Origin: Candidatus Kaiserbacteria bacterium RIFCSPHIGHO2_12_FULL_53_13
GTDB lineage: Bacteria; Patescibacteriota; Minisyncoccia; Phycocordibacterales; UBA2100
DNA length: 47,826 bases
Assembly: GCA_001781555.1 (NCBI GenBank)
Contig: MFLP01000034.1
Location: forward strand, 1,788 to 49,613
Direction of reading: 5' to 3'
In this document: positions 32 to 42,749 of the stretch, piece by piece
Layout of the letters: each line of letters begins with the position of its first letter
How positions within the stretch are numbered: the stretch's first letter is position 1
Position numbers and translations under genes: made by a program
Notes under the pieces: model-generated
The model's database searches: none
Told to the model about the DNA's origin: nothing
The model's input: only the letters and a program-made list of their open reading frames with translations

Positions 32-1264
32 CTATTTATCCGCGCGCGTCCGCATCTCTTCCGCGATCCGCTCGATGACATCCGCGACGGCAAGCGCCCC
101 GATCTTCCCGGCGCGCCCTTCGAGCGTCACCGTCTTCGCGTTCGCTTCTTCATCGCCCACGACCGCGAGGTAGGGGATTCTTTGCATCTTGCCGTTCCTT
201 ATGCGCTTGCCGAGCGTGTCTGCGGAATCGTCAAGAAGAACCCGGATATCCGCGCCTTTCAGCACATCGAACACCTCGCGCGCATAATCCGCGTGCTTTT
301 CCGAGACGGGGAGTATCTTCACCTGCGCCGGCGAGAGCCACACGGGGAGCGCCCCGTTCAAGTGTTCGAGTATGACCGATAGGAAGCGCTCGATAGAGCC
401 CATGATGGCCGCGTGGATCATCACGATACGCTCCTTCTCGCCCTTCTCGTTCACGCACGTGAGGTCGAAACGCTCCGGCATGTTCATGTCGAGCTGTATC
501 GTCGCCACTTGCCACTGCCGCCCCAAAGAATCGTTCGCCATGAAATCGAGCTTGGGGCCGTAGAATGCCGCTTCACCCGGACTTTCGACGACCTTCGCTT
601 TCTTCTCGCGCGCGATCTCGCGCAAAATGTCTTCCGCAGACGTCCAGCGCTTCTTGTCGCCGAGGTATTTCTCGGGTTCTTTCGGATCGTGGAATGAAAG
701 GCGTACCGAGAGGTCGAAGCCGAACGTGCCGTAGAACTCCTGGACGATGTCCCAGACTTTGAGGAACTCCTCCTTCACCTGCGCCTCGCGGCAGAACGTG
801 TGCGCATCGTCCTGCGTGATGGAGCGGACACGCGAGAGCCCGTTCAATTCTCCGCTCTGCTCGTCGCGGTAGACCATCGTCGTGTTGGTGTAGCGCTGAG
901 GCATCTCGCGGTAGCTCCAGGGCTTGCGCGCGTAGATCTGCGTGTGGTGCGGGCAGTTCATGGGCTTCATGGCGAACTCGTGGCCCTCGCGCGTCGTGAT
1001 GCGGAAGAGATCGTCTTTGAATTTGTCCCAGTGGCCGCTCGTCTCGTAGAGCTCTTTCTTCGTGATGTGCGGTATCTCGACTTTCTCGAAGCCGCGCGCC
1101 TTGCGCAATTCCCACACGAAATCGTCGAGCAGATTCCGGACGAGCGTGCCGCGCGGAGTCCAAAGGGGGAGACCGCTCCCGACCAGATCGGAGAAGACGA
1201 ACAGGTCGAGCTCGCGGCCGAGCTGCTTATGATCCGGGTTTTCCGACGAATGTGTTTCACTCAC
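32..1264 (-). CDS. thrS: Threonyl-tRNA synthetase, catalytic core plus anticodon-binding domain only (no TGS or editing N-terminus)
   Basis: The ORF track gives 32..1321 (429 aa). It carries a ThrRS-type class II core (DHKQLGRELDLF, LPLWTPRGT, FAMKPMNCPHH, RVRSITQDDAHTF) and a C-terminal anticodon-binding domain. The in-frame GTG at 1264 abuts the 3' arm of clamp element E1 and is preferred as the start. ATG 1321 is the longest alternative. Confidence 0.9.
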   Translation of the reverse strand: MSETHSSENPDHKQLGRELDLFVFSDLVGSGLPLWTPRGTLVRNLLDDFVWELRKARGFEKVEIPHITKKELYETSGHWDKFKDDLFRITTREGHEFAMKPMNCPHHTQIYARKPWSYREMPQRYTNTTMVYRDEQSGELNGLSRVRSITQDDAHTFCREAQVKEEFLKVWDIVQEFYGTFGFDLSVRLSFHDPKEPEKYLGDKKRWTSAEDILREIAREKKAKVVESPGEAAFYGPKLDFMANDSLGRQWQVATIQLDMNMPERFDLTCVNEKGEKERIVMIHAAIMGSIERFLSVILEHLNGALPVWLSPAQVKILPVSEKHADYAREVFDVLKGADIRVLLDDSADTLGKRIRNGKMQRIPYLAVVGDEEANAKTVTLEGRAGKIGALAVADVIERIAEEMRTRADK

Positions 1265-1381
1265 CCCGTTAGAAATAGGACGCGGACTATCAGGGTCGGT
1301 ATTTTTTGTTTTTTTGTCCATAGTCTAAAAGTTGCTGGAATATATTAATCCTGTAAGTCCGCTATTTCTAACGGGGCTCAT
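1264..1381 (-). promoter_or_regulatory. Start-codon clamp element E1 (upstream of thrS)
   Basis: On the minus strand a -10 TAATAT (1390-1395) is followed by 8 nt and ATG 1381. The 5' arm CCCCGTTAGAAATAG (1376-1362) pairs 15/15 with CTATTTCTAACGGGG (1278-1264), whose last G is the thrS GTG. A second stem is CGGACT/AGTCCG. The mini-ORF reads MSPVRNSGLTGLIYSSNF* (1381-1325). Confidence 0.8.
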
Positions 1382-4782: not shown

Positions 4783-4799
4783 ACGGTAGAGCCATTATA

Positions 4800-4934
4800 C
4801 CCGGTTAGTAGAATTTCGGCTTGCCGAAGGCGAGAGCTGAAATTTCCCCATGTGGCTTCAAAGTTGATACTTCGTGGTCGACCTAGCCATATTCTGCGAC
4901 GGCAAAAAACATAAGCCGAAATTACACTACCGGG
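4800..4934. repeat. Imperfect 22-bp inverted repeat in the dnaE/rnhB divergent promoter region
   Basis: CCCGGTTAGTAGAATTTCGGCTT (4800-4822) faces AAGCCGAAATTACACTACCGGG (4913-4934). Each arm sits just upstream of a -10 box: TATAAT for dnaE on the minus strand and TATAAT 4945-4950 for rnhB. Confidence 0.7.
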
Positions 4935-4957
4935 ATAGCAGGGTTATAATAACGCTC

Positions 4958-8946: not shown

Positions 8947-9071
8947 ATGTATCCCGTTAGAAGTTTCGGAAGTTATGATAGCTGTGCAGTCGCGGCAAGT
9001 TTGCACACGGTCGATTGTTTAGTATACGTAGGTATCAAGTCGGAAGCGCAAGCTTCCTACTTCTAACGGGA
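8947..9071 (+). promoter_or_regulatory. Start-codon clamp element E2 (upstream of smc)
   Basis: TGGTAGAAT (8930-8938) is followed by 8 nt and ATG 8947. The 5' arm TCCCGTTAGAAGT (8952-8964) pairs 13/13 with ACTTCTAACGGGA (9059-9071), whose last A is the smc ATG. The mini-ORF 8947-9066 (39 aa) ends at the TAA inside the 3' arm. An inner hairpin GGAAGC-GCAA-GCTTCC is present. Confidence 0.85.
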
Positions 9072-11278
9072 TGTACCTCAAATCCATTGAGCTATCGGGG
9101 TTCAAATCGTTCGCGAAAAAGACCGAACTAGTATTCGGGTCGCGCATCGCGGGCATCGTGGGGCCCAACGGAAGCGGAAAATCCAACGTCGCGGAAGCGT
9201 TCCGGTTCGTCTTGGGCGAGCAGTCGATGAAATCCCTGCGCAGCCGGAGAGGGGAGGACCTAATCTGGGGCGGCTCGCCGGCGCTCTCGCGCTCGAATCG
9301 CGCCGGGGTGAAAGTTGTTTTTGACAACTCGAAGCGCCTTCTCGACCTCGATTTCAAGGAAGTCGCCGTTGAGCGCATCGTCTATCGCGATGGCCAGAAC
9401 GAATATCTTTTGAATGGCACGCAAGTGCGTCTCAAAGACGTGATACGACTTCTTGCCGGCGCGAACATAGGCGGCTCCGGCTACCAGATAATCTCCCAAG
9501 GCGAGGCGGACAGGATATTGAACGCAAGTCCGCGCGAGCGCAGGGAGATGGTGGAAGACGCGCTTGGGCTCAAACTCTATCAGCACAAAAAAGCGGAGAG
9601 CGAGCGGAAGCTCGATGAAACTGCTGTGAATATCGAGAAGACGCGTTCGCTCCGGCGGGAGATAAGCCCTCATCTCAACTTCCTGCGTGTACAAGTGGAG
9701 AAGATTGAAAAGGCGCGCGAGATGAAAGAAGAACTTTCCGCAAAACTCAGTGAGTATCTCGCGCGCGAGCATGCATGGATAACGCAGGAAGACGCGCGCC
9801 TCCTCGCGGAGGCGCGCACACAAGAATCCGAGCTGAAAAAGCTCGGCGCCCGCGTCAACGAGGCGCGCGGAAAGCGCACCGGCGACAGCGACGACACGCT
9901 CAAAGAACTGCAGGGAAGAATTGTCGAGCGCGAACACAAGCTATCCATGGCGCGGCGCGAGAGCGAAAAGCTCAGTCGCGAACTCGGCCGGGCGGAGGGG
10001 GCCGCGGAAGCAACCAATGTGACGGTAGAACAGATCGTCGCCGTCCCGCATGTGCGTCAATTTGCGCGCGAAGTGAGCGAAGCGCTCGCCGGAGCCGAGA
10101 GGACAGACGACATTGCCGCAGTGCGCGGGCTTATCGGACAGATACGCGAGCGCATCAAGGCGTTTGTCGACGGTCTGTCCGGTTCCGCGCCGCAGACAAA
10201 TGAAGAGATGAAGCAGCAAGTGAAGGCAATAGCGAACTCTCTTGAGCGCGTGCAGAAAGAAGAATCGGAGCTAGCCCAAGAGCTGGAGGCGCTTCGCGCG
10301 AAGATCACGCAAGTACGCGACGCCGGGTTTACTGCGGAGCGCGATTTGGTCGGGCTTGAATCCGCCGTGCGCGAAGCGCAGACGAAATTAAGCGCGGTTT
10401 CAGGCGCGCGCGGCAACATTGCAGTAGCGCGACAGCGTTTCGAGGAGGAAGTGCGGGAGGGAATCGTTCTCATCGGCGCCGCTGTCCATGGATGGGAAAA
10501 GAGCGTGATACCGGAAGGAGCGCTCTCCGAAGATCGCGGCGCGCAGGAAAAACGCCGGCGCGAGATAGAACGTTTGAAAATAAAGATAGAAGAATCAGGC
10601 ATCGGCAACGGCGACGCGGTCGTTCGCGAGTTCAACCAGACGAAAGAGCGCGACGTATTCCTCGGTCGCGAGCTTGAAGATTTGGAGCGTTCAGCAGCGT
10701 CGCTCAAAGATATCATTGCGGAACTGGAAAAGACGATAGACGAGCACTTTACTTCAGGGCTCAAGCAAATAAACGAAGCGCTCTCGAGTTTCTTCACGAA
10801 GCTTTTCGGAGGAGGTGAGGCGAAATTGGAGGTAGAGAAACCAAAAAGGCCTCGCGGCGCGAAAGACGATGATCTGGATGAGGACGAAGACGAAGATGAT
10901 ATACCCGAAGAGGAAGAATTATACGCCGGACTTTCTATATCGGTTCAGCTTCCGCGCAAAAAAGTGCGCGGACTCGAGGTGCTCTCGGGCGGCGAGCGTG
11001 CACTCACATCCATCGCGCTTATTTTTTCCATGTCGCAAGTGAATCCTCCGCCTTTTCTTGTTCTGGATGAGACGGATGCCGCGCTCGATGAGGCGAACAG
11101 CAAGCGCTACGCCGACATGATCCGCGAGCTCGGCGGCAAGAGTCAGCTCATCGTCATCACTCATAACCGCGCGACGATGGCGGCGGCAGGGGAGCTTTAC
11201 GGCGTCACGATGGGGCAGGACGGAATTTCCAAACTTCTTTCCGTCAAACTTGAGGAGGCGGAAAAAGTCGCCAAATAA
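9071..11278 (+). CDS. smc: SMC-family chromosome segregation ATPase, unusually short (735 aa)
   Basis: The N-terminal head reads MYLKSIELSGFKSF...GPNGSGKSN, followed by a long coiled-coil region. The C-terminal head carries the signature LSGGERALTSIALIF and Walker B FLVLDETDAALD. An acidic insert DDDLDEDEDEDDIPEEEE precedes the C-terminal head. Confidence 0.88.
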   Translation: MYLKSIELSGFKSFAKKTELVFGSRIAGIVGPNGSGKSNVAEAFRFVLGEQSMKSLRSRRGEDLIWGGSPALSRSNRAGVKVVFDNSKRLLDLDFKEVAVERIVYRDGQNEYLLNGTQVRLKDVIRLLAGANIGGSGYQIISQGEADRILNASPRERREMVEDALGLKLYQHKKAESERKLDETAVNIEKTRSLRREISPHLNFLRVQVEKIEKAREMKEELSAKLSEYLAREHAWITQEDARLLAEARTQESELKKLGARVNEARGKRTGDSDDTLKELQGRIVEREHKLSMARRESEKLSRELGRAEGAAEATNVTVEQIVAVPHVRQFAREVSEALAGAERTDDIAAVRGLIGQIRERIKAFVDGLSGSAPQTNEEMKQQVKAIANSLERVQKEESELAQELEALRAKITQVRDAGFTAERDLVGLESAVREAQTKLSAVSGARGNIAVARQRFEEEVREGIVLIGAAVHGWEKSVIPEGALSEDRGAQEKRRREIERLKIKIEESGIGNGDAVVREFNQTKERDVFLGRELEDLERSAASLKDIIAELEKTIDEHFTSGLKQINEALSSFFTKLFGGGEAKLEVEKPKRPRGAKDDDLDEDEDEDDIPEEEELYAGLSISVQLPRKKVRGLEVLSGGERALTSIALIFSMSQVNPPPFLVLDETDAALDEANSKRYADMIRELGGKSQLIVITHNRATMAAAGELYGVTMGQDGISKLLSVKLEEAEKVAK

Positions 11279-12717: not shown

Positions 12718-13998
12718 ATGTATCAGCGCAGAGAACATAGTACGAGCCGCACGGGCTCATTCAATAGACGACCGGCAGGCCGGGGCTTTTCACGCTCGTC
12801 TTTTGGCGGGTCACGCGGCAGGAGCTCCTCATTCCGCGGACGTAGCAGCGGTTCAAGCCGCGGTGGCACGAGAGGACCAAGCGGCCAGCACATAGATATT
12901 TCGCGATTCGTCAACAAAGCGGTCATCACGGAGGAAGTGGAAAATTTCATCCCCGAGCATAATTTTGTGGACTTCGCAATAGATGAGCACCTCAAGAAAA
13001 ATATTATCGCAAAAGGATACGCTACGCCGACGCCGATACAGGATCGCGCTATTCCGCACGTCTTGCGCGACGAAGATATCGTCGGTATCGCGAACACGGG
13101 TACGGGGAAAACCGGCGCTTTTCTTATTCCGCTTATCAACAAAGTGCTTCATGACAGGAACGAGCGCGTTCTCATCATGGTGCCGACGCGCGAGCTCGCT
13201 ATTCAGATAGAAGACGAGTTCTGGGGCTTCGCGAAGCATCTTCGCATCGGCGCGGTGACCTGCGTCGGAGGCGCAAATATCAATCCGCAGATAGCGACCC
13301 TTCGCCGGAAGCCGAACTTCGTCATCGGCACGCCGGGGCGCTTGAAGGATGTTATGGAAAGGCGCGCGCTTAACCTTGAAGGTTTCGGCACCGTCGTCTT
13401 GGATGAAGCCGACCGCATGCTCGACATGGGATTCATAGCGGACATGAAATTCATTCTCTCGCACATGAAGACCGCCGAGCGCCACACGCTTTTCTTCTCG
13501 GCGACATTGTCGCGCGAGATAGAGAAGCTCATCGGCGATTTTCTCAAAGATCCGGTGCGCATTTCAGTAAAGACACGCGACACGCCGCAGAATGTGGATC
13601 AGGACATCGTGCGAGTTTCCGCCAGCCAGACAAAACTCGACGTTTTGCACGACCTGCTTGCCCAGCCGGAATTCAGCAAAGTGCTCATCTTCGGACGCAC
13701 GAAGCACGGCGTGGAGAAACTCTCGAAGATGCTTGAACAGAAAGGTTTCAAAGCGGCTTCAATTCACGGCAACAAAACGCAGAGCAACCGTCAAAGAGCA
13801 CTCGGCCTTTTCAAACAGAATCACATTCAAATCCTCGTCGCGACCGACGTCGCCGCGCGCGGCTTGGATATTCCGAAAGTCTCGCACGTCATCAACTACG
13901 ATATTCCGAACACTTACGAAGACTACGTGCACCGCATCGGCCGCACCGGCCGCGCGGGAGAGAAGGGGAAAGCGCTTACGTTCATCGAGGGGAGGTAA
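12718..13998 (+). CDS. DEAD-box ATP-dependent RNA helicase with an N-terminal Arg/Gly/Ser-rich tail
   Basis: Motifs present are the Q motif (GYATPTPIQ), AQTGTGKT-type ANTGTGKTGAF, VLDEADRMLDMGF, SAT and HRIGRTGRAG. The first ~60 aa are RG/RS low complexity. Confidence 0.93.
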   Translation: MYQRREHSTSRTGSFNRRPAGRGFSRSSFGGSRGRSSSFRGRSSGSSRGGTRGPSGQHIDISRFVNKAVITEEVENFIPEHNFVDFAIDEHLKKNIIAKGYATPTPIQDRAIPHVLRDEDIVGIANTGTGKTGAFLIPLINKVLHDRNERVLIMVPTRELAIQIEDEFWGFAKHLRIGAVTCVGGANINPQIATLRRKPNFVIGTPGRLKDVMERRALNLEGFGTVVLDEADRMLDMGFIADMKFILSHMKTAERHTLFFSATLSREIEKLIGDFLKDPVRISVKTRDTPQNVDQDIVRVSASQTKLDVLHDLLAQPEFSKVLIFGRTKHGVEKLSKMLEQKGFKAASIHGNKTQSNRQRALGLFKQNHIQILVATDVAARGLDIPKVSHVINYDIPNTYEDYVHRIGRTGRAGEKGKALTFIEGR

Positions 13999-14010: not shown

Positions 14011-14107
14011 CGGGCATTACACTTTTGCCGTCGCTGTCTGTGCGTGCTCGCACAGCGCTGCCTCTTGCGCCGTCGCGCTGCGAGACACGGCAAAAGCGCA
14101 ATGCCCG
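14011..14107 (+). repeat. Intergenic palindromic repeat, family A, copy 2
   Basis: The outer stem is CGGGCATTACACTTTTGCCG ... CGGCAAAAGCGCAATGCCCG. The core has hairpins CTGTGCG-TGCT-CGCACAG and GCGC-CGTC-GCGC. It is about 93% identical to the reverse complement of 23385-23481. It starts 12 nt after the helicase stop codon. Confidence 0.85.
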
Positions 14108-19656: not shown

Positions 19657-19717
19657 GCAGAAAAGGAGCATCTGAGCGGATTTCCCCAAAGTTCGTATTT
19701 GTGGGATGATCCTATTG

Positions 19718-20551
19718 ATGGCTATTCCAACATACGATAATTTGTTTAACCCAGTCATTGAAGCCTTAAAGAAACTTGGAGGTTCAGGATCAGTTTCTGA
19801 GATTGAAGAGAAAGTCGCCGTATTACTCAAATTGACCGATGAAGAAGTAAACGAAATACACCGAGGTAACAGGTCGAAGTTGAGCTATCGACTTGCTTGG
19901 TCGAGAAATTATCTGAAACGTTACGGAATCTTGGAAAATTCCTCGCGTGGAGTTTGGGCTCTAACGCCATTGGGAACGAAGACAGGAAAAGTCGATAAAG
20001 ACGAGGTCAACAAGGCCGTCAAACTGCTTGACCAAGCGCTCGTCAAGGGGAAGAAAGATGGTAAAAAAGTTATAGACGATGAAGAGCCAGGTTTATGGCA
20101 AGAAGAAATGTTGGAGCAACTTCTGAAACTTTCTCCAGCCGCGTTCGAGCGACTATGTCAACGTATACTACGCGAGTCAGGCTTTGTTCAAGTAGAAGTC
20201 ACTGGCCGATCCGGTGATGGAGGTATTGATGGTCGGGGCATTATAAAGATAGCAGGTCTTCTTAGCTTCTACATTATTTTTCAGTGCAAACGGTATACGG
20301 GCAGTGTATCTGCTCAGCAGATCAGAGATTTCAGAGGTGCGATGGTCGGGCGAGCTGATAAAGGACTTGTTATAACTACTGGGACTTTTACGAGAGACGC
20401 AAGGCAAGAAGCTACAAGGGATGGTGCGCCGCACATCGATCTTATCGAGGGGGAGGAGTTAGTTGAGAAGATGAAGGAATTGCAACTTGGTTTGAAAATT
20501 AAGATGGAGGAATCGGTTGAGGTTGATAAGGATTGGTTTAAAGCTTTCTAA
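19718..20551 (+). CDS. mrr: Mrr-family type IV (modification-dependent) restriction endonuclease
   Basis: The Mrr_N-type start is MAIPTYDNLFNPVIEALKKLGG. The catalytic region reads GDGGIDGRG...IIFQCKRY...GLVITTGTFT. ATG 19718 is preferred over the ORF-track 19706. Confidence 0.85.
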   Translation: MAIPTYDNLFNPVIEALKKLGGSGSVSEIEEKVAVLLKLTDEEVNEIHRGNRSKLSYRLAWSRNYLKRYGILENSSRGVWALTPLGTKTGKVDKDEVNKAVKLLDQALVKGKKDGKKVIDDEEPGLWQEEMLEQLLKLSPAAFERLCQRILRESGFVQVEVTGRSGDGGIDGRGIIKIAGLLSFYIIFQCKRYTGSVSAQQIRDFRGAMVGRADKGLVITTGTFTRDARQEATRDGAPHIDLIEGEELVEKMKELQLGLKIKMEESVEVDKDWFKAF

Positions 20552-20567
20552 ACCAACCCAACTAATT

Positions 20568-21518
20568 ATGAAGAAGAGAGAAAAGAAGAAGAAACAGAAT
20601 TCATGGATAGCAAAAGCCGCAGACTCTATTAAAAGGGCTGGACTTGCGTACAAAACTGTTACCACCAAGAGTTCACAGCATCTTTTGATAAATGCCGACT
20701 GTGAGGACGGGATGCGTGCGCTGCCGGAAGGCAGTGTGGATCTTATTATCACAGATCCACCCTACAACCAGAATCTCGATTATGGTCCGAAATTCAACGA
20801 CAAAAAATCCCGCGGTGAGTTTTATTCCTGGTTTAGAAGACGACTTTCATATATTCCCAGTCTATTAAGTTCACGCGGAAGTTTTTATCTTATTAGCTAT
20901 CCAGAAATTAATGCCAGAATCTTACCGTTTCTTGAGGACGAGCTGGGCCTAAACTATCGTGCATGGATCACATGGCATTATCCAACAAATATCGGTCATT
21001 CGAAAAAGAACTTCACACGCAGCCAAAGATCCATCTTATTTTTTACTAAGGAAAAAGATAATTATATTTTTAACCGGGATATTTTACTCCAGCCATATAA
21101 AAATCCAACCGCACCTGTTATAAGAGAACGAATCAAACAAGGGGCTAAAGGTCGGGTTGCATATGACACACTTCGTTTATCTGATTTATATGAACTCAAT
21201 AAATTGTCATACGATGTACAGATATTAGATCTATTAAAAAACAATTCTCCTGAGAGACTAAGAAATCTGGACGGGCACTTTACCCCTTTCAACGATGATA
21301 AGAAGTTGAAGAGAAATGATCATCCCTGTCAGTTGCCCTTGAGCTTGCTCACACTTTTTATACAAGTTAGTAGCAACACAAATTCTCTGATCCTGGATCC
21401 ATTCGCCGGCACTTTTACCACCTCCGCTGCGGCTGAAAAATTAAACCGCTCTTCTGTGGGAATAGAGCTTAACAAGAAATTCATAGATTTCGGTTCAAAG
21501 AGATTATCTCTCATATGA
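20568..21518 (+). CDS. Beta-class N6-adenine/N4-cytosine DNA methyltransferase
   Basis: Motif IV DLIITDPPYN precedes motif I ILDPFAGTFTTS, which is the beta-class permutation. Start 20568 is preferred over the ORF-track 20517, which overlaps mrr. Confidence 0.85.
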   Translation: MKKREKKKKQNSWIAKAADSIKRAGLAYKTVTTKSSQHLLINADCEDGMRALPEGSVDLIITDPPYNQNLDYGPKFNDKKSRGEFYSWFRRRLSYIPSLLSSRGSFYLISYPEINARILPFLEDELGLNYRAWITWHYPTNIGHSKKNFTRSQRSILFFTKEKDNYIFNRDILLQPYKNPTAPVIRERIKQGAKGRVAYDTLRLSDLYELNKLSYDVQILDLLKNNSPERLRNLDGHFTPFNDDKKLKRNDHPCQLPLSLLTLFIQVSSNTNSLILDPFAGTFTTSAAAEKLNRSSVGIELNKKFIDFGSKRLSLI

Positions 21519-23260
21519 AATATGGACTTGCACAAGCAATAAACATCTTCAATCTAGGGGGAATATTTGCTTGTGATATTGAAGAAACAAAACTTCTAAT
21601 CTCGAAAAGATCCGAGACAGTAAGTGCAGGGAAAATAACGAAGCAAGGAGAGGAGATTGAACTTGACGGCTTTGCGATGAAGGGGGATGTGTTATGGCTC
21701 ATAGAATATACGGACTCGAGGAGCTTAGACACAAAAGATTTTGACAACTTTATTCAAAAGATTACTCTCTTGGGAGACGATGAAAACAAGATGCTTATAG
21801 AAGCCATTAATAAAATCTGGTCAAAATATAAAGTAAAAGAAACGAAACCGAACATCACAGTTAAGACGCAATTAATCGGTCTCTACATTGCGCCGATGAA
21901 AGGTGAGGCTGATGAGGCCACACTCCTCCAAAGAATACCGAGAGACAAGAGAGACAAGACAATATTTTTTTGGGGTCGCGATACTTTTGAGTATTTTTAC
22001 TCCATATGTGAGAGCACCAGACGAAATGCACAGTATGAAATTTACGGTTATTTCAATCTGGAACCTAAGGCCGTCTTCGAGAAGAAGGAAGTCGAAGACC
22101 AAGAGGGCTATGTGTCGAAACCCTATGTAGATATTGAGAAAGGTATTTTCGGATGTCGAATGATAATTTTTAAGATTAGCCCCACATCACTTCTCCGGAG
22201 ATGCTATGTGTTGCGCAACGAGGGCTGGAAAAGCGACAGTTTCCAGCGAATGATAATTCAGGAGAAGTTGAAAAAACTGCGCTCGTACATTGTCGCAAGG
22301 GATGATTCTTCATTTGCGAATAGCATCATTCTCAGTTTGGATCCGAATATTTCGTCAAACGTTTTGAAAGAGGATACAAAGTCAATACTGCTTCCGAATC
22401 GTTTTGCAAGCTTATGTATCATTGATGGTCAACACAGACTTCTCGCGTTTACGCAAGATTTTTATGGAGAGAGCGATCCTTCAGAAAAGGAAAATGATGG
22501 GAAAATTAAGAGACTTGCCGAGAATGAAGATTTAATTGCCACGCTGTTGGTTTTTAATGGAAAACCGCAAGAAATATTGCGTAAACAGACTCAACTTTTT
22601 AGAGATATTAATGCGACCCAAACAAAAGTAAAAAGCGACTTCCTCTATAATCTTGAAGAGATTATAGAGCCTAAGAACCCATCGTCAGTTGGAAACAAGA
22701 TTATCAAATCTCTCAACAGGAGAGAGAACGGTGTATTTCATGAGAAGTTTTCTGTTAAATGGTATCAAGGTGGGAGAATAAAAAGATCTAGTGTCATCCA
22801 ATGGGGATTGGTCGACTTGGTCAAAAAAGACGGACTTCTTTATAAGTGTGCTCCGCGCTCTACGATAGAGAAATATTCAAAGGGTGACGTCGAAGATTAT
22901 GTAGTCTTTTGCGCGAATTCGCTGGAAGACTTCTTTTACGCCATCAGACAAACATTTAAGAAGAAGTATCCTAAGAAAAAGAGCGTGTGGGATTTTTCTT
23001 CAAAAAGTAAACTAATGCTGCTATCGACATCAGCAATCGTGGGATTCCTTAGGCTTTACAGGCATTTCTTGCATTCGAAGATTTTAAAATCCAATTACGA
23101 GGAATACCTTTCCGGTATTGAAGTCAAATTCAACAAAGTTTCTTACAAGTATAGTTCCAGCCAATGGGCAAAGTTAGAGGAGGCAATGTTTGATGACATT
23201 CGCGAAAAATACGGATCTTTTGGCGATGAGTCACTAATAAAAAGATCAAAGAAAATCTAA
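21515..23260 (+). CDS. DGQHR-domain (DndB-like, ParB/Srx-fold) protein with an unassigned ~200-aa N-terminal domain
   Basis: 581 aa. The DGQHR-domain pattern is present: SFQRMI..., IIDGQHRLLAF and LFRDINATQTKV. The ATG overlaps the methyltransferase stop (ATGA at 21515-21518). Confidence 0.75.
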   Translation: MKYGLAQAINIFNLGGIFACDIEETKLLISKRSETVSAGKITKQGEEIELDGFAMKGDVLWLIEYTDSRSLDTKDFDNFIQKITLLGDDENKMLIEAINKIWSKYKVKETKPNITVKTQLIGLYIAPMKGEADEATLLQRIPRDKRDKTIFFWGRDTFEYFYSICESTRRNAQYEIYGYFNLEPKAVFEKKEVEDQEGYVSKPYVDIEKGIFGCRMIIFKISPTSLLRRCYVLRNEGWKSDSFQRMIIQEKLKKLRSYIVARDDSSFANSIILSLDPNISSNVLKEDTKSILLPNRFASLCIIDGQHRLLAFTQDFYGESDPSEKENDGKIKRLAENEDLIATLLVFNGKPQEILRKQTQLFRDINATQTKVKSDFLYNLEEIIEPKNPSSVGNKIIKSLNRRENGVFHEKFSVKWYQGGRIKRSSVIQWGLVDLVKKDGLLYKCAPRSTIEKYSKGDVEDYVVFCANSLEDFFYAIRQTFKKKYPKKKSVWDFSSKSKLMLLSTSAIVGFLRLYRHFLHSKILKSNYEEYLSGIEVKFNKVSYKYSSSQWAKLEEAMFDDIREKYGSFGDESLIKRSKKI

Positions 23261-23384
23261 GTATTCCCTGCAGAGGCGTCTTGCATCAAATCGACGCCGG
23301 TGGACATTGGGCGATTCCAACCTCGTTTGTTTGTTCAGCTAGGTTCATTACTTGAGCCGTTCGCTTTCCCAGCTTAAGCGAGCT

Positions 23385-23481
23385 CGGGCATAGCGCTTCT
23401 GCCGTGTCTAGCAGCGCGACGGCGCGAGAGGCAGCGCTGTGCGAGCACGCACAGACAGCGACGGCAGAAGTGCTATGCCCG
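23385..23481 (-). repeat. Intergenic palindromic repeat, family A, copy 3 (inverted relative to copy 2)
   Basis: The outer stem CGGGCATAGCGCTTCTGCCG ... CGGCAGAAGTGCTATGCCCG pairs 19/20 plus one G-T. The core is nearly identical to the reverse complement of 14011-14107. Homology extends about 20 nt further (CTCRCTTRAGCTKGG). Confidence 0.85.
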
Positions 23482-23743
23482 ACGAGTATCCCTATTGCCA
23501 CCCCCCACCATTTTGTGCTATCCTGGTAATGTGAAATATAGAGGCGTAAACATACAGAATCGCCGTAGGACGCCTTATTTGAGGGTGTTTTAGAGCGTTT
23601 GCATTTATCCAGATCAAACTTTCCGAAACGTCCTCAAAAATGAGGCCGTTTTTGATTAATAGGGTAAAATTACACAGTAAAATAATATGAAAGCACAATA
23701 TCCGTACCACAAGGTAGCTTCATACGAAGGAGATAAAGACAGC

Positions 23744-24990: not shown

Positions 24991-26280
24991 ATGGCAAAGC
25001 TCTGGAAAAAGTCAGAGGAAAAACTGCATCCGTCCGTTGAGAGATATACGGCCGGGACCGATCACGTATTCGACATGCAATTAATGCCGTTTGATATTGA
25101 AGCCACCCGCGCGCATGCCAAAGGCCTTCAAAAAATAGGGATTCTTACGAGCGAAGAGCTCTCAAAAATACTCTCGGCCCTCGACAGCTTGGAAAAAGAA
25201 TTCGCGAACGGGGAGATAAAAATCACTCCGGCGGACGAAGATTGCCACACCGTGATGGAGAACTACCTCGTGAATAAACTCGGCGACACGGGGAAGAAAA
25301 TACACACCGGCAGAAGCAGGAATGACCAGGTGCTTGTGGCCCTGCGCATGTATATGCGCGCTTGCGCGCGTGAATTACATGGCGCAAGCGTGGAACTTGC
25401 CTCGAGTTTTCTTGATAAAGCGGAGAAGTACAAAGATATGCCGATGCCGGGCTACTCGCACACCCAGCAAGCGATGCTCACAAGCGTCGGCCATTACCTG
25501 CTGGCCTTCACGGAGAGTTTGCTGGACGATGCAGACCATCTTGCGCTAGTCCTCAAGCACATCAACAAGAGCCCTCTTGGTTCTGCCGCTGGATTCGGGG
25601 TCTCAATTCCATTGGATAGGGAATTCACCGCAAAAGAACTCAAGTTCGACGGAGTGCAGGTCAACTCTCTTTACTGCCAGAATTCACGCGGCAAATTCGA
25701 GAGTGTTTTTATGGAAGCGCTGGCGCAGATAATGCTTAGCTTGGGAAAATTTGCGAACGACATGCTCATGTTCACTTCGAATGAGTTCGATTTCTTCTCG
25801 GTTGATGGTTCGCTTACTACCGGTTCGAGCATCATGCCGCAAAAAAGGAACCTGGATGTCATGGAGATACTTCGCGGCAACGTAAGCGTGGTTCTTGCGG
25901 ACCAGCTCATGGTCAAGGACATTTCAAAGAATCTTCTCTCCGGCTATAACAGGGACCTCCAGCTCCTGAAGAAGCCCGTAATGGAGAGCGTTGAGATAGT
26001 CCGGAGCAGCCTGCAGGTGGCAGGGCTTATGCTTTCAGGAATGACGCCGAATGAAGAAAGCATGCGGGCGAAGATAACGCCCGGCATATTCGCGGCTGAC
26101 ATCGCGAATCAGCTTGTGCAGGAAAAAGGCATGCCGTTCCGCGACGCATACAAGCAGGCGCTTGACCTCGTCTCTTCGCGCCCGGTCGACTTGAAGGAGA
26201 ATCTCGATTCAAAGGTAAGCTTGGGAGCACCCGGGAATCTCGACCTCGCTAACTATCGCCGCCGCATAAAAAATGCATGA
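24991..26280 (+). CDS. argH: Argininosuccinate lyase
   Basis: The fumarate-lyase family signature region GSSIMPQKRNLDVMEILRG and TGRSRNDQV are present. Confidence 0.93.
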   Translation: MAKLWKKSEEKLHPSVERYTAGTDHVFDMQLMPFDIEATRAHAKGLQKIGILTSEELSKILSALDSLEKEFANGEIKITPADEDCHTVMENYLVNKLGDTGKKIHTGRSRNDQVLVALRMYMRACARELHGASVELASSFLDKAEKYKDMPMPGYSHTQQAMLTSVGHYLLAFTESLLDDADHLALVLKHINKSPLGSAAGFGVSIPLDREFTAKELKFDGVQVNSLYCQNSRGKFESVFMEALAQIMLSLGKFANDMLMFTSNEFDFFSVDGSLTTGSSIMPQKRNLDVMEILRGNVSVVLADQLMVKDISKNLLSGYNRDLQLLKKPVMESVEIVRSSLQVAGLMLSGMTPNEESMRAKITPGIFAADIANQLVQEKGMPFRDAYKQALDLVSSRPVDLKENLDSKVSLGAPGNLDLANYRRRIKNA

Positions 26281-26398
26281 GTCCCGTTAGAAGTCGCGGA
26301 CGACTAAATATACTAGCAACTATGAACTCAGCATTTATCAACGATAACAAAGTAAGATACGGAGCCCGTTCCGGTTCCGCGTCTTACTTCTAACGGGA
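26277..26398 (+). promoter_or_regulatory. Start-codon clamp element E3 (between argH and argF)
   Basis: The mini-ORF ATG 26277 overlaps the argH TGA as ATGA. The 5' arm TCCCGTTAGAAGT (26282-26294) pairs 13/13 with ACTTCTAACGGGA (26386-26398), whose last A is the argF ATG. A second stem is CGCGGA/TCCGCG. The mini-ORF 26277-26393 (38 aa) ends at the TAA in the 3' arm. Confidence 0.85.
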
Positions 26399-27381
26399 TG
26401 AAACACCTAATTTCTCTTAAAGAACAGAGCGCGGATGATATCCGGGAAATTCTGGATATTGCGTCAGACCTGAAGAAGAAATATCGCGCGGGTATCGCGA
26501 CGAATTTGCTGCCGGGGAAGACTCTCGTCATGCTCTTCCAGAAAAACTCGACGCGGACGCGCCTTTCATTTGAAGCCGGAATGACGGAACTCGGCGGCCA
26601 CGCGATATTCCTGGCGTCATCGCATGCACAGTTGCCGCTCGCGGATTTTAGCGACGAGATACAGGCAATAATGCGATTCGCAGATGTGTTGATGATACGG
26701 TCCATGCACGTCAAAGACGTGCTGACGGCCGCATCATACGACCGCATCCCAGTCATCGATGCTTGCAGCGAGAAATATCATCCATGCCAGGCGCTCGGAG
26801 ATATTATGACGATGTCGGAATATTCCGGTGGACTCAAGAATGTCAAAAAAATCGCGTGGCTGGGAATAGAAAATAACGTGTGCAATACCTTGAAACTGGC
26901 TTGTGCGAAATTGGGCATAGAGGTCGTTCTTGCGACTCCCGAAGTTCATCCGCCAAGCGTTGACAAGGAACTGAACGCGCAGGCTTCCGCGACGGGGAAA
27001 GTGCGGCGCGCTAAACATCCCAAGGATGCCATTGCCGACGCCGACTACGTGCACACCGATACATGGCTCGATGCGGAGTATTTCAATAATCGCACTCCGA
27101 AGCCGGAGTTCAGCGCGGAATTCGAACGGCGCAAGGCCGTGTTCATGCCGTACCAGCTGAATGCGAAACTCATTGATACGTATGCGCCGAAGGCGCGGAT
27201 AATGCACTGCATGCCGATGCACGTCGGGTACGAAATATCACGCGACGCCATCGACCACAAGAACTCCGTCATCTTTGATCAGGCGGAAAACCGCAAGCAC
27301 GTGCAGAAGGCGATCTTGCTCTGGCTTTTGGGCGTAAATATTAATCCTGCAAAACATCGGAAAATAGGGAAGAAGCGATGA
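26398..27381 (+). CDS. argF: Ornithine carbamoyltransferase
   Basis: Motifs STRTR, HPCQ and HCMP are present and the N-terminus MKHLISLKE is typical. Confidence 0.92.
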   Translation: MKHLISLKEQSADDIREILDIASDLKKKYRAGIATNLLPGKTLVMLFQKNSTRTRLSFEAGMTELGGHAIFLASSHAQLPLADFSDEIQAIMRFADVLMIRSMHVKDVLTAASYDRIPVIDACSEKYHPCQALGDIMTMSEYSGGLKNVKKIAWLGIENNVCNTLKLACAKLGIEVVLATPEVHPPSVDKELNAQASATGKVRRAKHPKDAIADADYVHTDTWLDAEYFNNRTPKPEFSAEFERRKAVFMPYQLNAKLIDTYAPKARIMHCMPMHVGYEISRDAIDHKNSVIFDQAENRKHVQKAILLWLLGVNINPAKHRKIGKKR

Positions 27382-27384
27382 CGA

Positions 27385-28437
27385 CTAGATTTTTATTATT
27401 TTTTCCCACGAACGTCTGGCTACTCCGAAATGCCCGTAGGTGGCGGTTTCTCGGAAAATGGGGCGGCGCAAATCAAGGCGTTCTATTATTGCCTGGGGGC
27501 GGAAGTCGAAATTCTTCGTGACGATGTTCGTCAGATTTTTTCCTTTGTCGTCGAACGCTTCTATCATCACGGGCTCTGCTCGCCCGATGGCGTAAGCAAC
27601 CGACACTAGGGCTTTCTTCGCGTAGCCGTTCGCGACCAGGTTCTTCGCGACGAATCGGCACATATACGCCGCCGAACGGTCGACTTTCATCGGCTCTTTT
27701 CCTGAGAAACACCCGCCGCCATGCGGCATGAGGCCTCCGTAGGTATCGACTTGTATCTTTCGGCCTGTTAATCCCGCATCTGCTTCAAAACCGCCTTGCA
27801 CGAACCGTCCTGTCGGATTGACTAGTATTTCTATGTTCTTCGTCGAGCCGAGTACGGGAGTGAAGAGATGTTTTATGAGCTGTTTCCGTATCTCTTCTTG
27901 AGAGACTTTCTTGTCATGCTGCGTGGAGCAGAGCGCCGTCAGGACTTTACCCTTTGAGATAGTCACCTGCGTTTTGCCGTCGGGCTTCAGCCAGGGAAGC
28001 GTCTTGTCGCGGCGCAATTTCTCAAGGCGTCTTGCGAGCGCGTGCGCCAAGACCACTCCAAGAGGAAGCATCTCTTTCGTTTCGTTCGTCGCATAACCAT
28101 ACATGATGCCCTGATCCCCCGCGCCGCCCGTGTCAACGCCCATCGCAATGTCAGGTGATTGCTGTGCGATACGCACAAGCACCTCAAGGTTGTCCTTGTA
28201 GCCGATTTCCCGGTAGACGCGCCTCGCGATCTTTTCAAAGTCGACTTTCGCTTTCGTCCGGACTTCTCCGCCTATCATAAGAGTTCCGTGACTGCCGAAC
28301 GTCTCCACGCCGGCTCTGCTGAAGGGGTCTTGTTCGAGCATTGCATCAAGAATGGCGTCTGATATCTGGTCGCAGACCTTATCGGGATGCCCGCATGTGA
28401 CGCTCTCCACCGTGTACCTCTCAAGTAAATGGAACAT
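27385..28437 (-). CDS. metK: S-adenosylmethionine synthetase
   Basis: Motifs GHPDKVCDQISD, GAGDQG and DTYGG are present. On the minus strand TATAAG (28443-28448) lies 5 nt before the ATG. The stop codon is 3 nt from the convergent argF stop. Confidence 0.93.
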   Translation of the reverse strand: MFHLLERYTVESVTCGHPDKVCDQISDAILDAMLEQDPFSRAGVETFGSHGTLMIGGEVRTKAKVDFEKIARRVYREIGYKDNLEVLVRIAQQSPDIAMGVDTGGAGDQGIMYGYATNETKEMLPLGVVLAHALARRLEKLRRDKTLPWLKPDGKTQVTISKGKVLTALCSTQHDKKVSQEEIRKQLIKHLFTPVLGSTKNIEILVNPTGRFVQGGFEADAGLTGRKIQVDTYGGLMPHGGGCFSGKEPMKVDRSAAYMCRFVAKNLVANGYAKKALVSVAYAIGRAEPVMIEAFDDKGKNLTNIVTKNFDFRPQAIIERLDLRRPIFRETATYGHFGVARRSWEKIIKI

Positions 28438-28636
28438 AATATCTTATAGAACCAAATATCTCCCCGACGGGAGATTATTGATAAAAGTATCTTCCCATAC
28501 GGGCTGGATGTGGCACCTTCTCTTTCGAGGGTTGTCGGCGGGTCATCAGGCCAGTTCCTTCACCGCGCTCTTGATACGATATTCAGTTGTGCACACATGA
28601 TAGCAGTCATCGTGCCGCTGTGCAATACTGCCGCAC

Positions 28637-42686: not shown

Positions 42687-42749
42687 TGCCCCAACGTTGC
42701 AGTTTCTCTGCACCCCATTAGAAGGTAAGGATCAAATGAATTGATTCAT

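What the first reader, a model, noticed from the sequence alone, without database searches (positions are those of the whole stretch)
26277..26393. Clamp elements carry mini-ORFs starting MxPVR; two end at a TAA inside the 3' arm, 4 nt before the main ATG
In 5/6 copies an ATG sits exactly 3 nt upstream of the CCC of the 5' arm. All five mini-ORFs therefore begin M-x-P-V-R-(S/N/G):
- E1 MSPVRNSGLTGLIYSSNF*
- E2 MYPVRSFGSYDSCAVAASLHTVDCLVYVGIKSEAQASYF*
- E3 MSPVRSRGRLNILATMNSAFINDNKVRYGARSGSASYF*
- E5 MNPVRGRGRTRQYQISYFNLLRH*
- E6 MNPVRSLISEVYTKS*

In E1, E2, E5 and E6 that ATG lies 6-9 nt after a -10-like box (TAATAT, TGGTAGAAT, GATAAT, TGGTAGGAT), which is a leaderless-mRNA context. In E3 it overlaps the argH stop as ATGA. 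E2 and E3 read through the entire element and terminate at the TAA embedded in the 3' arm (TAAcgggATG), a geometry suited to termination-reinitiation. For argH - mini-ORF - argF this forms an unbroken coupling chain.

The last codons A-S-Y-F-stop are kept in E1 (there out of frame with the ATG), E2 and E3, with only third-position differences (GCG TCC TAT TTC / GCT TCC TAC TTC / GCG TCT TAC TTC).

Working model (inference): a 70S ribosome loads on the 5'-terminal AUG, melts the clamp while translating, and is handed to the SD-less main start.
Basis: partly seen in the sequence, partly recalled or inferred. Interest (0 to 1): 0.85.

Follow-up and report, generated by a model that had tools for sequence, protein, structure and literature searches.

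The report
Mobile element inserted at start codons
The "mini-ORFs" are the original start codons of genes, left stranded when a small mobile hairpin element inserted one base after the A of ATG, copied four bases and rebuilt a start codon behind itself; ribosomes may still reach the gene by reading through the element.

Summary
Five of six copies carry ATG 3 nt before the CCC of the left arm, the peptides are as listed, and -10-like boxes lie 6-9 nt upstream.

The "clamp" is a miniature inverted-repeat mobile element, 5'-Y-CCCGTTAGAA...TTCTAACGGG-R-3'. It inserts with a 4-bp target-site duplication (TGAA, TGAG, TGTA).

Relatives have empty sites at argH/argF, ddl and maf. These show that the upstream ATG is the gene's original leaderless start. 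The downstream ATG or GTG is new, made from the element's last purine plus the duplicated TG. "PVR(S/N/G)" is simply the translated left arm, and "ASYF*" is the right arm with its adjoining repeat.

The element occurs in more than 120 representative genomes, mostly Patescibacteria. It is absent from 150 kb of close relatives of this window.

ATG-initiated ORFs, or stop-to-ATG relays, run from the old start into the right arm about twice as often as in shuffled controls. All three frames of the right arm deliver ribosomes to the new start. However, there is no peptide conservation, no third-position substitution bias and no sign of RNA-level selection on the stem. No parental transposase was found.

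The parts
26282..26398 (+). Element E3, the copy in the finding: Y (T, 26282) + CCCG...CGGG (26283-26397) + R (A, 26398, which is also the A of the argF ATG)
   Evidence: Arms found; coordinates checked; absent from orthologous argH-argF junctions.
26277..26281 (+). Original argF start ATG (26277-26279), overlapping the argH stop TGA (26278-26280); left copy of the target-site duplication TGAG (26278-26281)
   Evidence: Relatives L127-L133, L136, L137, L142 and L150 read ...NNT ATGA(A/G)(G/A)CAC with no element; coordinates.
26399..26402 (+). Right copy of the target-site duplication (TGAA; 3 of 4 bases match TGAG). Together with R at 26398 it forms the regenerated argF start ATG (26398-26400)
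   Evidence: ArgF confirmed by NCBIfam.
26283..26294 (+). Left terminal inverted repeat CCCGTTAGAAGT. Read in the old-ATG frame it gives P-V-R-S
26386..26397 (+). Right terminal inverted repeat ACTTCTAACGGG. It contains TAA (26391-26393) 4 nt before the regenerated ATG
26277..26393 (+). Mini-ORF of E3 (38 codons plus TAA), running from the old ATG to the TAA in the right arm. An internal ATG at 26322 in the same frame is preceded by TATACT (26309-26314)
   Evidence: no homologous protein family.
1264..1376 (-). Element E1 before thrS. Old ATG 1381-1379; duplication TGAG at 1380-1377 and 1263-1260; regenerated GTG 1264-1262. The mini-ORF stop is followed 3 nt later by an ATG in frame with thrS
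   Evidence: relay.
8952..9071 (+). Element E2 before smc. Old ATG 8947-8949; duplication TGTA at 8948-8951 and 9072-9075. The mini-ORF 8947-9066 ends at the arm TAA
28641..28738 (+). Element E4 before maf. No upstream ATG and no recognisable duplication (5' flank ACGTGT). Still an insertion relative to L160/L161, which read TGCAATACTGCCGC-ATGCGAAAG
   Evidence: empty site.
32897..33013 (+). Old ATG 32892-32894; duplication TGAA at 32893-32896 and 33014-33017. The right arm is CTAACGTG. The mini-ORF stop is followed 4 nt later by the ATG at 32968, in frame with the gene
35204..35298 (+). Old ATG 35199-35201; duplication TGAA at 35200-35203 and 35299-35302. Element termini are C...G, so the regenerated start is GTG (35298-35300)
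   Evidence: Empty sites L157 (TGTAGGATAAGGGA-ATGAAGACGATC) and L159; coordinates.

Best explanation
**What it is**

The "clamp" is a non-autonomous mobile DNA element of the MITE type, about 90-130 bp long. Its terminal inverted repeats are 5'-Y-CCCGTTAGAA...TTCTAACGGG-R-3'. It inserts with a 4-bp staggered cut at T-N-N-A/G sites.

**What is shown**

- In this SD-less Patescibacteria genome most genes are leaderless: a -10 box is followed 5-9 nt later by ATG.
- The element has landed in the TGNN that follows the A of the start codon.
- The original ATG plus one copy of TGNN stays upstream. Fused to the left arm (CCC GTT AGA AGN) it reads M-x-P-V-R-(S/N/G).
- The element's last purine plus the second copy of TGNN makes a new ATG or GTG, so the gene stays intact.

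**What is inferred (probability about 0.45)**

- The transcript still begins at the old AUG, and ribosomes load there.
- They translate a short ORF, or a relay of short ORFs, through the element. This opens the arm pairing.
- They are then delivered to the new start, because every frame of the right arm ends there:
  - UUC UAA cggg AUG
  - CUA ACG GGA UGA, an AUGA overlap
  - UCU AAC GGG AUG, an in-frame fusion
- Copies that keep such a path appear to be the ones retained. The peptide sequence itself is irrelevant.
For: **Empty sites**

- argH/argF: 11 related loci (ArgF 70-83% identical) have a plain ATGA overlap with no element.
- ddl: relatives read TAGGAT-N6-ATGAAGACGATC. The window reads TAGGAT-N6-A[TGAA]C-element-G[TGAA]GACGATC.
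- maf: relatives read AATACT-GCCGC-ATG.

**Target-site duplication**

- A perfect 4-nt direct repeat flanks 84 of 140 unique copies, against 21.5 by shuffling (maximum 32 in 2000).
- In copies not at start codons it is 30 of 52, against 5.2.
- The two bases after ATG are identical in 51 of 58, against 24.8.
- Terminal Y and R are complementary in 134 of 140.
- The upstream codon stays ATG even when the downstream start is GTG (9 cases). This is as expected if R belongs to the element.

**Mobility**

- Six copies lie in the 48-kb window, against none in 150,622 nt of relatives.
- More than 120 hits occur in representative genomes of many phyla.
- Discrete subfamilies are shared between unrelated genes.
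- Tandem and nested copies, and short and long versions, exist.
- A second, different insertion sits at the same ATGAG junction in L145.

**Leaderless context**

- TANNNT peaks 6-7 nt before the old ATG: 19 hits against about 1-2 per position elsewhere.
- No gene in the window has an SD sequence.

**Coupling**

Subfamilies with an asymmetric bulge are always oriented the same way relative to the gene, 34 to 0.

**No known RNA family**

Rfam gives no match.
Against: - No autonomous copy or transposase with these ends was found in the roughly 120 loci held.
- 56 of 140 copies (40%) lack a perfect duplication, including E4.
- A plain transposon does not by itself explain two features:
  - Almost all Patescibacteria copies in the sample sit exactly at start codons.
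  - The main subfamilies occur in one orientation only.
- The same arms enclose a tRNA-Ala and abut two other tRNAs, which hints at an RNA-level or processing role.
- For the coupling step:
  - About half the copies have no unbroken translational path.
  - The shuffle controls ignore shared ancestry among copies.
  - No expression data were available.
Confidence: 0.8

Rival explanations
1. The element is an evolved cis-regulatory "clamp" RNA, and its dedicated leaderless mini-ORF (MxPVR...) exists to load 70S ribosomes and hand them to an SD-less start.
For: - ATG is at -6 in 58 of 88 copies.
- A -10 box sits at leaderless spacing.
- UAA lies 4 nt before the start.
- Stop codons are depleted in the sense frames.
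- Orientation is 34 to 0.
Against: - Empty sites show that the ATG and the -10 box pre-date the element.
- The second codon is duplicated too (51 of 58), which no translational model requires.
- 21 of 88 copies have no upstream ATG, and 9 have it out of register.
- There is no peptide conservation.
- There is no G-U bias in the arms.
- Close relatives lack the element entirely.
Confidence: 0.07
2. The element is a mobile insertion as described, but the mini-ORFs do nothing. The gene is expressed in another way: from a promoter inside the element, from an internal ATG in frame with the gene (giving an N-terminally extended protein), by direct internal initiation, or after RNase cleavage of the hairpin creates a new 5' end at the start codon.
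For: - Four of the six window copies have an internal ATG in frame with the gene.
- About half of all copies lack an unbroken path from the old ATG.
- E4 and 20 other copies have no upstream ATG.
- The arms abut mature tRNA ends in L030 and L093 and enclose a tRNA in L117, as a processing stem might.
Against: - -10-like boxes before the internal ATGs show no preferred spacing. The old ATG, by contrast, has a sharp peak at 6-7 nt.
- The frame-specific stop depletion and the relay enrichment would be left unexplained.
- The start codon's first bases are paired in a helix of -28 to -47 kcal/mol, which argues against unaided internal initiation.
Confidence: 0.3
3. The element is a REPIN/BIME-like or IS200/IS605-derived palindromic element, moved as single-stranded DNA by a Y1 (RAYT/TnpA) enzyme rather than by a cut-and-paste transposase.
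For: - The architecture fits: two conserved inverted arms around a variable spacer.
- Copy number is high.
- The hairpin is strong.
- No DDE partner was found.
Against: - A variable 4-nt flanking direct repeat is present in 84 of 140 copies. Y1 enzymes insert next to a fixed target without duplicating it.
- There is no GTAG-type conserved head.
- The pairing is terminal, not subterminal.
Confidence: 0.05
4. The inverted arms are recombination or regulatory DNA sites: an invertible promoter, integron attC-like sites, or paired operators.
For: Two identical inverted 10-12-bp sites lie about 100 bp apart, directly upstream of genes.
Against: - The asymmetric subfamilies are never seen inverted (34 to 0).
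- In each arm, GTT/AAC lies on the opposite side from its position in an attC R''/R' core (my knowledge of attC), and there are no cassette arrays.
- Empty sites with a target duplication indicate transposition.
- Genes of all kinds are affected.
Confidence: 0.02
5. Programmed translational bypassing. The ribosome takes off at the old AUG-NNY and lands on the matching AUG-NNN, skipping the hairpin, as in T4 gene 60.
For: The five bases ATGNN match on the two sides of a compact hairpin.
Against: - The match is explained by the target duplication, and it also occurs at non-coding sites (30 of 52).
- No stop codon follows the take-off codon.
- The nascent peptide would be only two residues long.
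- 21 of 88 copies have no upstream ATG.
Confidence: 0.02

Closest known systems
Bacterial MITEs co-transcribed with neighbouring genes, such as Correia/NEMIS elements of Neisseria and ERIC/IRU of enterobacteria (own knowledge)
   Same: - They are small (about 100-150 bp) with terminal inverted repeats.
- They have a target-site duplication and no transposase gene.
- They occur in many copies per genome, close to genes.
- They form stable hairpins in mRNA that can alter expression.
   Different: - These elements have different ends (YCCCGTTAGAA) and a 4-bp duplication at TNNR sites, not TA.
- In Patescibacteria the sampled copies are mostly exactly at start codons, not merely in intergenic DNA.
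- The terminal purine rebuilds the start codon.
- The interiors are highly diverse.
- The family spans many phyla.
Rickettsia palindromic elements, RPEs (own knowledge)
   Same: They are mobile palindromic elements tolerated inside genes because the insertion preserves the reading frame or function.
   Different: - RPEs are translated as in-frame protein segments.
- Here the element stays outside the mature ORF, and the start codon is regenerated downstream.
- An in-frame read-through from the old ATG occurs in only 1 of 58 copies.
Translational coupling and termination-reinitiation at overlapping or adjacent stop/start codons (AUGA, UAAnnnnAUG), and 70S reinitiation or scanning (own knowledge)
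   Same: - A stop codon lies 4 nt before the main start, or overlaps it.
- The main start has no SD sequence.
- An upstream ORF opens a helix that masks the start.
   Different: - Here the arrangement is created by a transposon end, not by operon evolution.
- The upstream ORF begins at a 5'-terminal, leaderless AUG.
- None of this has been tested experimentally.
REPINs/BIMEs mobilised by RAYT (own knowledge)
   Same: Two inverted conserved arms flank a variable spacer and form one long hairpin. Copy number is high.
   Different: - These elements have a variable flanking duplication.
- They lack the GTAG head.
- They lie at gene starts, not downstream of genes.

Membership tests
MITE (non-autonomous cut-and-paste DNA transposon) | Terminal inverted repeats at both ends | tested here: met
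   A 10-12-nt identical core sits within an inverted repeat averaging about 21 nt. Terminal Y and R are complementary in 134 of 140 copies.
MITE (non-autonomous cut-and-paste DNA transposon) | Short direct target-site duplication of fixed length flanking each copy | tested here: met
   The repeat is 4 nt and perfect in 84 of 140 copies, against 21.5 expected. Other registers and lengths fit worse.
MITE (non-autonomous cut-and-paste DNA transposon) | Presence/absence at orthologous sites, with the empty site equal to one copy of the duplication | tested here: met
   Shown at argH/argF, ddl and maf. At maf the duplication itself has decayed.
MITE (non-autonomous cut-and-paste DNA transposon) | Small size, no transposase ORF, multiple copies per genome | tested here: met
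   Copies are 81-129 nt. Six lie in the 48-kb window, and several 8-kb loci hold 2-3. The E3 peptide matches no protein family.
MITE (non-autonomous cut-and-paste DNA transposon) | An autonomous partner carrying the same ends and a transposase | tested here: inconclusive
   No arm pairs 0.4-3.5 kb apart enclose a transposase in the loci held. Whole genomes could not be scanned.
Leaderless upstream ORF coupled to the main ORF by termination-reinitiation | Upstream AUG at the transcript's 5' end | tested here: inconclusive
   The sequence evidence is only indirect. TANNNT peaks 6-7 nt upstream, and 26 of 58 copies have one within 4-10 nt, against 9 in a control window. No 5'-end data were available.
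Leaderless upstream ORF coupled to the main ORF by termination-reinitiation | Upstream ORF stop within a few nt of the main start, or overlapping it | tested here: inconclusive
   This holds directly in 19 of 58 copies: 14 at UAA-4-AUG and 5 at AUGA. With relays of 6 nt or less it holds in 28 of 58. The remaining copies are broken.
Leaderless upstream ORF coupled to the main ORF by termination-reinitiation | Ribosome occupancy, and dependence of main-ORF expression on the upstream AUG | not testable with these tools
   This needs Ribo-seq, toeprinting or reporter assays.
Conserved functional micropeptide | Purifying selection on the amino-acid sequence (excess of third-position changes; homologues) | tested here: not met
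   Mismatch rates by codon position are 0.20, 0.27 and 0.24 over 10 related pairs. One chance-level hit was found among 1.84 billion representatives. The frame shifts within one subfamily (L075 and L096).
Curated structured RNA family (Rfam) | Match to a covariance model | tested here: not met
   The window gave nothing at the elements at gathering threshold. Six element-bearing loci gave no match at E <= 1.
Integron attC site | R'' (RYYYAAC) at the 5' end and R' (GTTRRRY) at the 3' end, downstream of cassette ORFs in arrays | tested here: not met
   Here GTTAGAA is in the 5' arm and TTCTAAC in the 3' arm, the opposite polarity. Copies lie upstream of housekeeping genes and not in arrays. The attC consensus is from my own knowledge.
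REPIN/RAYT or IS200/IS605-derived palindromic element | Insertion without target duplication next to a fixed tetra- or pentanucleotide | tested here: not met
   The flanking 4-mers vary and are duplicated.

The most novel reading that the evidence does not exclude
The family may be a start-codon-homing transposon adapted to SD-less, leaderless bacteria.

- It preferentially integrates at position +2 of leaderless genes, perhaps by recognising the TGAA-type site in the open promoter complex.
- Its terminal purine rebuilds the start codon.
- Its right end carries stops in two frames at the new start and is open in the third.
- Ribosomes loaded on the old 5'-terminal AUG would therefore always be passed on.

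Insertion would then be nearly neutral. It would also convert a constitutive leaderless gene into one whose translation depends on reading through, and so opening, a hairpin of -28 to -47 kcal/mol. The window density (6 copies in 48 kb) suggests that about one gene in eight could be affected.
Probability: 0.3. Interest if true: 0.8.

Novelty: new variant of a known kind. Interest (0 to 1): 0.58.

Why it matters
- **Explains a puzzling pattern.** Identical "clamps" sit at the start codons of unrelated housekeeping genes (thrS, smc, argF, maf, ddl and a hydrolase gene) in Patescibacteria. They are insertion scars, not a new class of leader peptide.
- **Corrects gene calls.** Gene callers extend or mis-start these genes. 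For example, Ddl is called at 395 aa and Maf at 235 aa; both calls start inside the element.
- **Provides natural experiments.** Each copy separates a leaderless AUG from its ORF by about 110 nt of hairpin. If the relay inference holds, these organisms rely on reinitiation after short ORFs without SD sequences. That would bear on how translation starts in a large, uncultivated part of the bacterial tree.
- **Offers markers.** The insertions could serve as strain-level markers in metagenomes.

Tried and rejected
- **Rfam.** The window at gathering threshold and six loci at E <= 1 gave nothing at the elements.
- **Literature.** Searches for the arm sequence, for MITE with candidate phyla radiation, for leaderless with Patescibacteria, and for MITE with start codon found nothing relevant.
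- **Autonomous element.** No long arm pairs with a transposase were found. In L018, 330-nt inverted repeats flank a Big_5 surface-protein gene, not a transposase.
- **Micropeptide.** Exhaustive HMMER with the E3 peptide gave one chance-level hit. A codon-position substitution test showed no periodicity.
- **RNA-level selection on the stem.** G-U-type and A-C-type mismatches number 24 and 20.
- **Internal promoter.** -10-like boxes show no preferred spacing before internal ATGs. The sigma-70 scan found no more sites than expected by chance (8 against 9.4).
- **Helix extension as the cause of the flanking repeat.** Only the last two bases pair with the start codon, so the rest of the repeat is a true direct repeat.
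- **A 2-bp duplication with A...T belonging to the element.** Rejected because positions -2 and +5, and -5 and +2, covary.
- **Orientation by interior alignment.** This was too noisy and was replaced by the bulge marker.
- **Synteny search for maf in the ArgF loci.** No hits.
- **Possible seventh copy at 42714** (CCCATTAGAAGG, before groES). It has no right arm and is probably a chance match.
Full report
**1. The observation**

The arm motif CCCGTTAGAAGT is strongly over-represented in the window: 12 hits with up to 2 mismatches against 2.7 expected, and 0 of 100 shuffles reach 12.

- The hits form six inverted pairs, each ending directly at a start codon.
- The genes are thrS (minus strand), smc, argF, maf, an alpha/beta hydrolase gene and ddl.
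- All six fold far better than shuffled sequence, at -28 to -47 kcal/mol with z of -3.6 to -6.4. The first one or two bases of the start codon are paired.
- Five of the six have ATG 3 nt before CCC.
- The window has 52% G+C.
- Its contig recurs in groundwater metagenome assemblies.
- The nearest named Ddl homologues are from Kaiserbacteria and Taylorbacteria, so the organism belongs to the Patescibacteria (CPR).

**2.

I scanned one representative genome per species for CCCGTTAGAA-N70-100-TTCTAACGGG.

- Most hits are from many Patescibacteria lineages.
- Others are from Omnitrophota, Planctomycetota, Desulfobacterota-type "delta proteobacteria", Thermodesulfovibrionales, Bdellovibrionales and further groups.
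- Together with the window this gave 141 unique copies. In 88 of them the right arm is followed at once by ATG or GTG.

Listing the flanks showed that the element sits between direct repeats. Examples are ATGAAT[...]ATGAAA, ATGGAT[...]ATGGAT and ATGCAT[...]ATGCAT. At non-coding sites the flanks read GTAAAC[...]GTAAAT or GTTGAC[...]GTTGAC.

| Measure | Observed | Shuffled expectation |
|---|---|---|
| Perfect 4-nt repeat (-5..-2 versus +2..+5), all copies | 84 of 140 | 21.5 (maximum 32 in 2000) |
| Same, copies not at start codons | 30 of 52 | 5.2 |
| Two bases after ATG identical, ATG-bearing copies | 51 of 58 | 24.8 |
| Bases -1 and +1 complementary (T:A or C:G) | 134 of 140 | not computed |

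When bases -1 and +1 are C:G the downstream start is GTG, yet the upstream codon is still ATG (9 cases). The parse that fits all of this is:

- element = Y + CCCG...CGGG + R
- duplication = 4 nt, with preferred target T-N-N-A/G

**3. Empty sites**

This parse predicts that relatives without the element have a single ATGNN. Three loci confirm it.

- **argH/argF.** Eleven related loci (ArgF 70-83% identical) read ...NNT ATGA(A/G)(G/A)CAC, with the argH stop overlapping the argF start. The window reads ...GC A[TGAG]T-element-A[TGAA]ACAC.
- **ddl.** Relatives at 72-75% identity read TGTAGGAT-AAGGGA-ATGAAGACGATC and GGTACGAT-AGAGGA-ATGAAGTCG. The window reads TGGTAGGAT-TCAGAA-A[TGAA]C-element-G[TGAA]GACGATC. 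The GTG start of ddl is therefore new, built from the element's terminal G and the duplicated TG. The upstream ATG with its -10 box is the ancestral leaderless start.
- **maf.** Relatives at 74% identity read TGCAATACT-GCCGC-ATGCGAAAG. The window has the same promoter, then ACGTGT, the element, and ATGAAAAAA. This is an insertion at the same place whose left duplicate has decayed.

In 150,622 nt of the ArgF-related loci there is no copy at all, even with relaxed arms. The window has six in 47.8 kb. One relative (L145) carries a different insertion of about 135 nt at the same junction, again flanked by TGAG.

**4. Consequences for the finding**

- "M-x" is the old start plus the first duplicated codon.
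- "P-V-R-(S/N/G)" is CCC GTT AGA AGN, the left terminal repeat.
- "A-S-Y-F-stop" is the subterminal repeat, its bulge and the right terminal repeat.
- The TAT/TAC difference pairs with A/G in the left arm.
- The -10 boxes at 6-9 nt belong to the original leaderless promoters. Across 58 copies TANNNT peaks sharply 6-7 nt before the old ATG.
- The genes of the window have no SD sequence, and many have a -10 box 5-11 nt before ATG.
- The ATG register is common but not fixed: -6 in 58 copies, -5 in 7, -7 in 2, and none in 21 of 88.

**5. Is the mini-ORF nevertheless used?**

*Evidence against a peptide or a selected RNA stem*

- Among 10 related pairs, mismatch rates at codon positions 1, 2 and 3 of the frame ending at the arm TAA are 0.20, 0.27 and 0.24.
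- The E3 peptide finds only one chance-level hit among 1.84 billion cluster representatives.
- Within one subfamily a shared block (..NRIGFGR..) is read in different frames in different copies.
- G-U-type and A-C-type mismatches in the arms are equally common, 24 and 20.

*Evidence for selection on translatability*

| Measure | Observed | Control |
|---|---|---|
| Interior stop-free, old-ATG frame | 31% | 14% and 4.5% in the other two frames |
| Interior stop-free, frame ending at the arm TAA | 31% | 9% in each other frame; about 15% on the reverse complement |
| Old-ATG ORF reaches the right arm | 20 of 58 | 7.0 with shuffled interiors (maximum 17 in 1000) |
| Relay with gaps of 6 nt or less from old to new start | 28 of 58 | 12.0 +/- 3.1 |
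| Relay with gaps of 30 nt or less | 39 of 58 | 20.7 +/- 3.6 |
| ATG-ORF of 45 nt or more entering the right arm | 49 of 88 | 18 of 88 on the reverse complement |

- The stop positions of the old-ATG ORF are bimodal: either in the first part of the element or at the arm.
- In the window, four of the five ATG-bearing copies have a relay with gaps of 12 nt or less. The fifth needs a gap of up to 30 nt.
- Read directly from the sequence, all three frames through TTCTAACGGGATGA end at the new start: UAA-4 nt-AUG, an AUGA overlap, or an in-frame fusion.
- Subfamilies with an asymmetric bulge next to the right arm are found only in one orientation relative to the gene, 34 to 0. Symmetric ends alone would not predict this.

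*Caveats*

- The copies are not independent.
- The shuffles preserve only base composition.
- About half the copies have no unbroken path.

**6. Most likely mechanism**

*Shown*

The element is a mobile DNA insertion of the MITE type. It makes a 4-bp duplication, and in these genomes it is found one base into leaderless start codons.

*Inferred, about 0.45*

Transcription still starts at the old AUG. Ribosomes loaded there translate into the left arm and open the helix. They then reach the regenerated start by termination-reinitiation, stop-start overlap or in-frame read-through. Copies that permit this are the ones that persist.

*Unknown*

- The transposase.
- Whether the start-codon location reflects targeting or survival. 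The second insertion at the same junction in L145 hints at a hot spot.
- The reason for the orientation bias.

**7. Comparison with what is known**

- The features that define a MITE are met, except that no autonomous partner was found (see the membership table).
- The closest analogues known to me are Correia/NEMIS and ERIC elements, which are co-transcribed hairpin MITEs, and Rickettsia palindromic elements, which are insertions tolerated inside genes.
- What differs here is the exact placement at start codons, the regeneration of the start by the terminal purine plus the duplicated TG, and a right end whose three frames all feed the new start.
- Full-text searches for the arm sequence and for related topics found no description. 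Rfam has no matching family. The library is incomplete, so prior description cannot be excluded.

**8. Verdict**

The mini-ORFs are insertion scars, not an evolved leader-peptide device. Read-through coupling from the old start is a reasonable but untested account of how the interrupted genes stay expressed.
- This is a new variant of a known kind of element, of moderate to good interest for the genome biology of Patescibacteria and for gene-start annotation.

Noticed in passing
window 28484-28580 (minus strand): A SAM riboswitch (Rfam RF00162, 54.3 bits) lies upstream of metK (27385-28437, minus strand). It shares a divergent intergenic region with element E4 and maf.
   Followed up: no
window, upstream of ATG at 12718, 24991 (argH) and 43117 (groEL): CA-rich leaders with repeated ACCTAA / CCTAACACCTAAA units run right up to the start codon. 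This may be an SD-independent leader motif used by genes that are not leaderless.
   Followed up: no
window, all gene starts: No gene has a recognisable Shine-Dalgarno sequence. Many have a TANNNT box 5-11 nt before ATG, for example at 4782 (minus strand), 14840, 23687, 31243 and 28437 (minus strand). Leaderless mRNAs therefore seem to be the norm.
   Followed up: partly
window 4787-4948; also L162, about 60-190 nt upstream of maf: A second inverted-repeat family has arms resembling the first (CCCGGTTAGTAGAATTTCGGCTT / AAGCCGAAATTACACTACCGGG). In the window, one arm ends directly at the TATAAT box of the gene that starts at 4782 (minus strand).
   Followed up: no
window 14011-14107 and 23384-23482: A third palindromic repeat family has 34-35-nt arms (CGGGCAT...GCCG) and a 29-nt spacer, downstream of genes.
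   Followed up: no
L117 5058-5165; L030 1916-2019; L093 3443-3535: In L117 the same arms enclose a complete tRNA-Ala(CGC). In L030 the right arm abuts the 5' end of a tRNA-Leu, and the upstream flank pairs with the tRNA's first bases. In L093 the left arm abuts the 3' end of a tRNA-Val. This could mean passenger capture, or a role as an RNA-processing stem.
   Followed up: partly
L145 1-160: A different insertion of about 135 nt sits at the same argH/argF junction. It is flanked by duplicated TGAG and ends ...ACTTCTAAC|ATGAG, which is the right arm without GGG. Its interior holds a GC-rich hairpin like those in the non-Patescibacteria copies.
   Followed up: no
L018 2046-2369 and 4832-5155: Inverted repeats of about 330 nt, each containing one 92-nt element, flank a 686-aa gene for a surface protein with a Big_5 domain. 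This may be an invertible segment.
   Followed up: partly
window 32-1264 (minus strand) and 9071-11278: ThrRS is only 410 aa and matches the model from position 169 onward, so the N-terminal domains are missing. SMC is only 735 aa against about 1180 for the model.
   Followed up: no
L134, L135, L139, L140, L141, upstream of argF: Relatives in which argF is not preceded by argH share a CT-rich leader, CTTCTTTTGCTTTTTTATTCATTTCAGGYCATTCTTKCTTC, directly before ATG.
   Followed up: no
L070 1263-1290, L059 6508-6553, L026 1796-1850; L069 6920-7198, L126 3889-4164, L051 180-363: The same arms also occur as bare hairpins of 28-54 nt and as longer versions of 184-279 nt. Tandem and nested copies exist as well, in L027, L096, L110 and L095.
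   Followed up: no
window 19706-23260: An Mrr-like restriction enzyme gene, an N6/N4 DNA methyltransferase gene and a DndB-like gene form a small defence island just upstream of argG.
   Followed up: no
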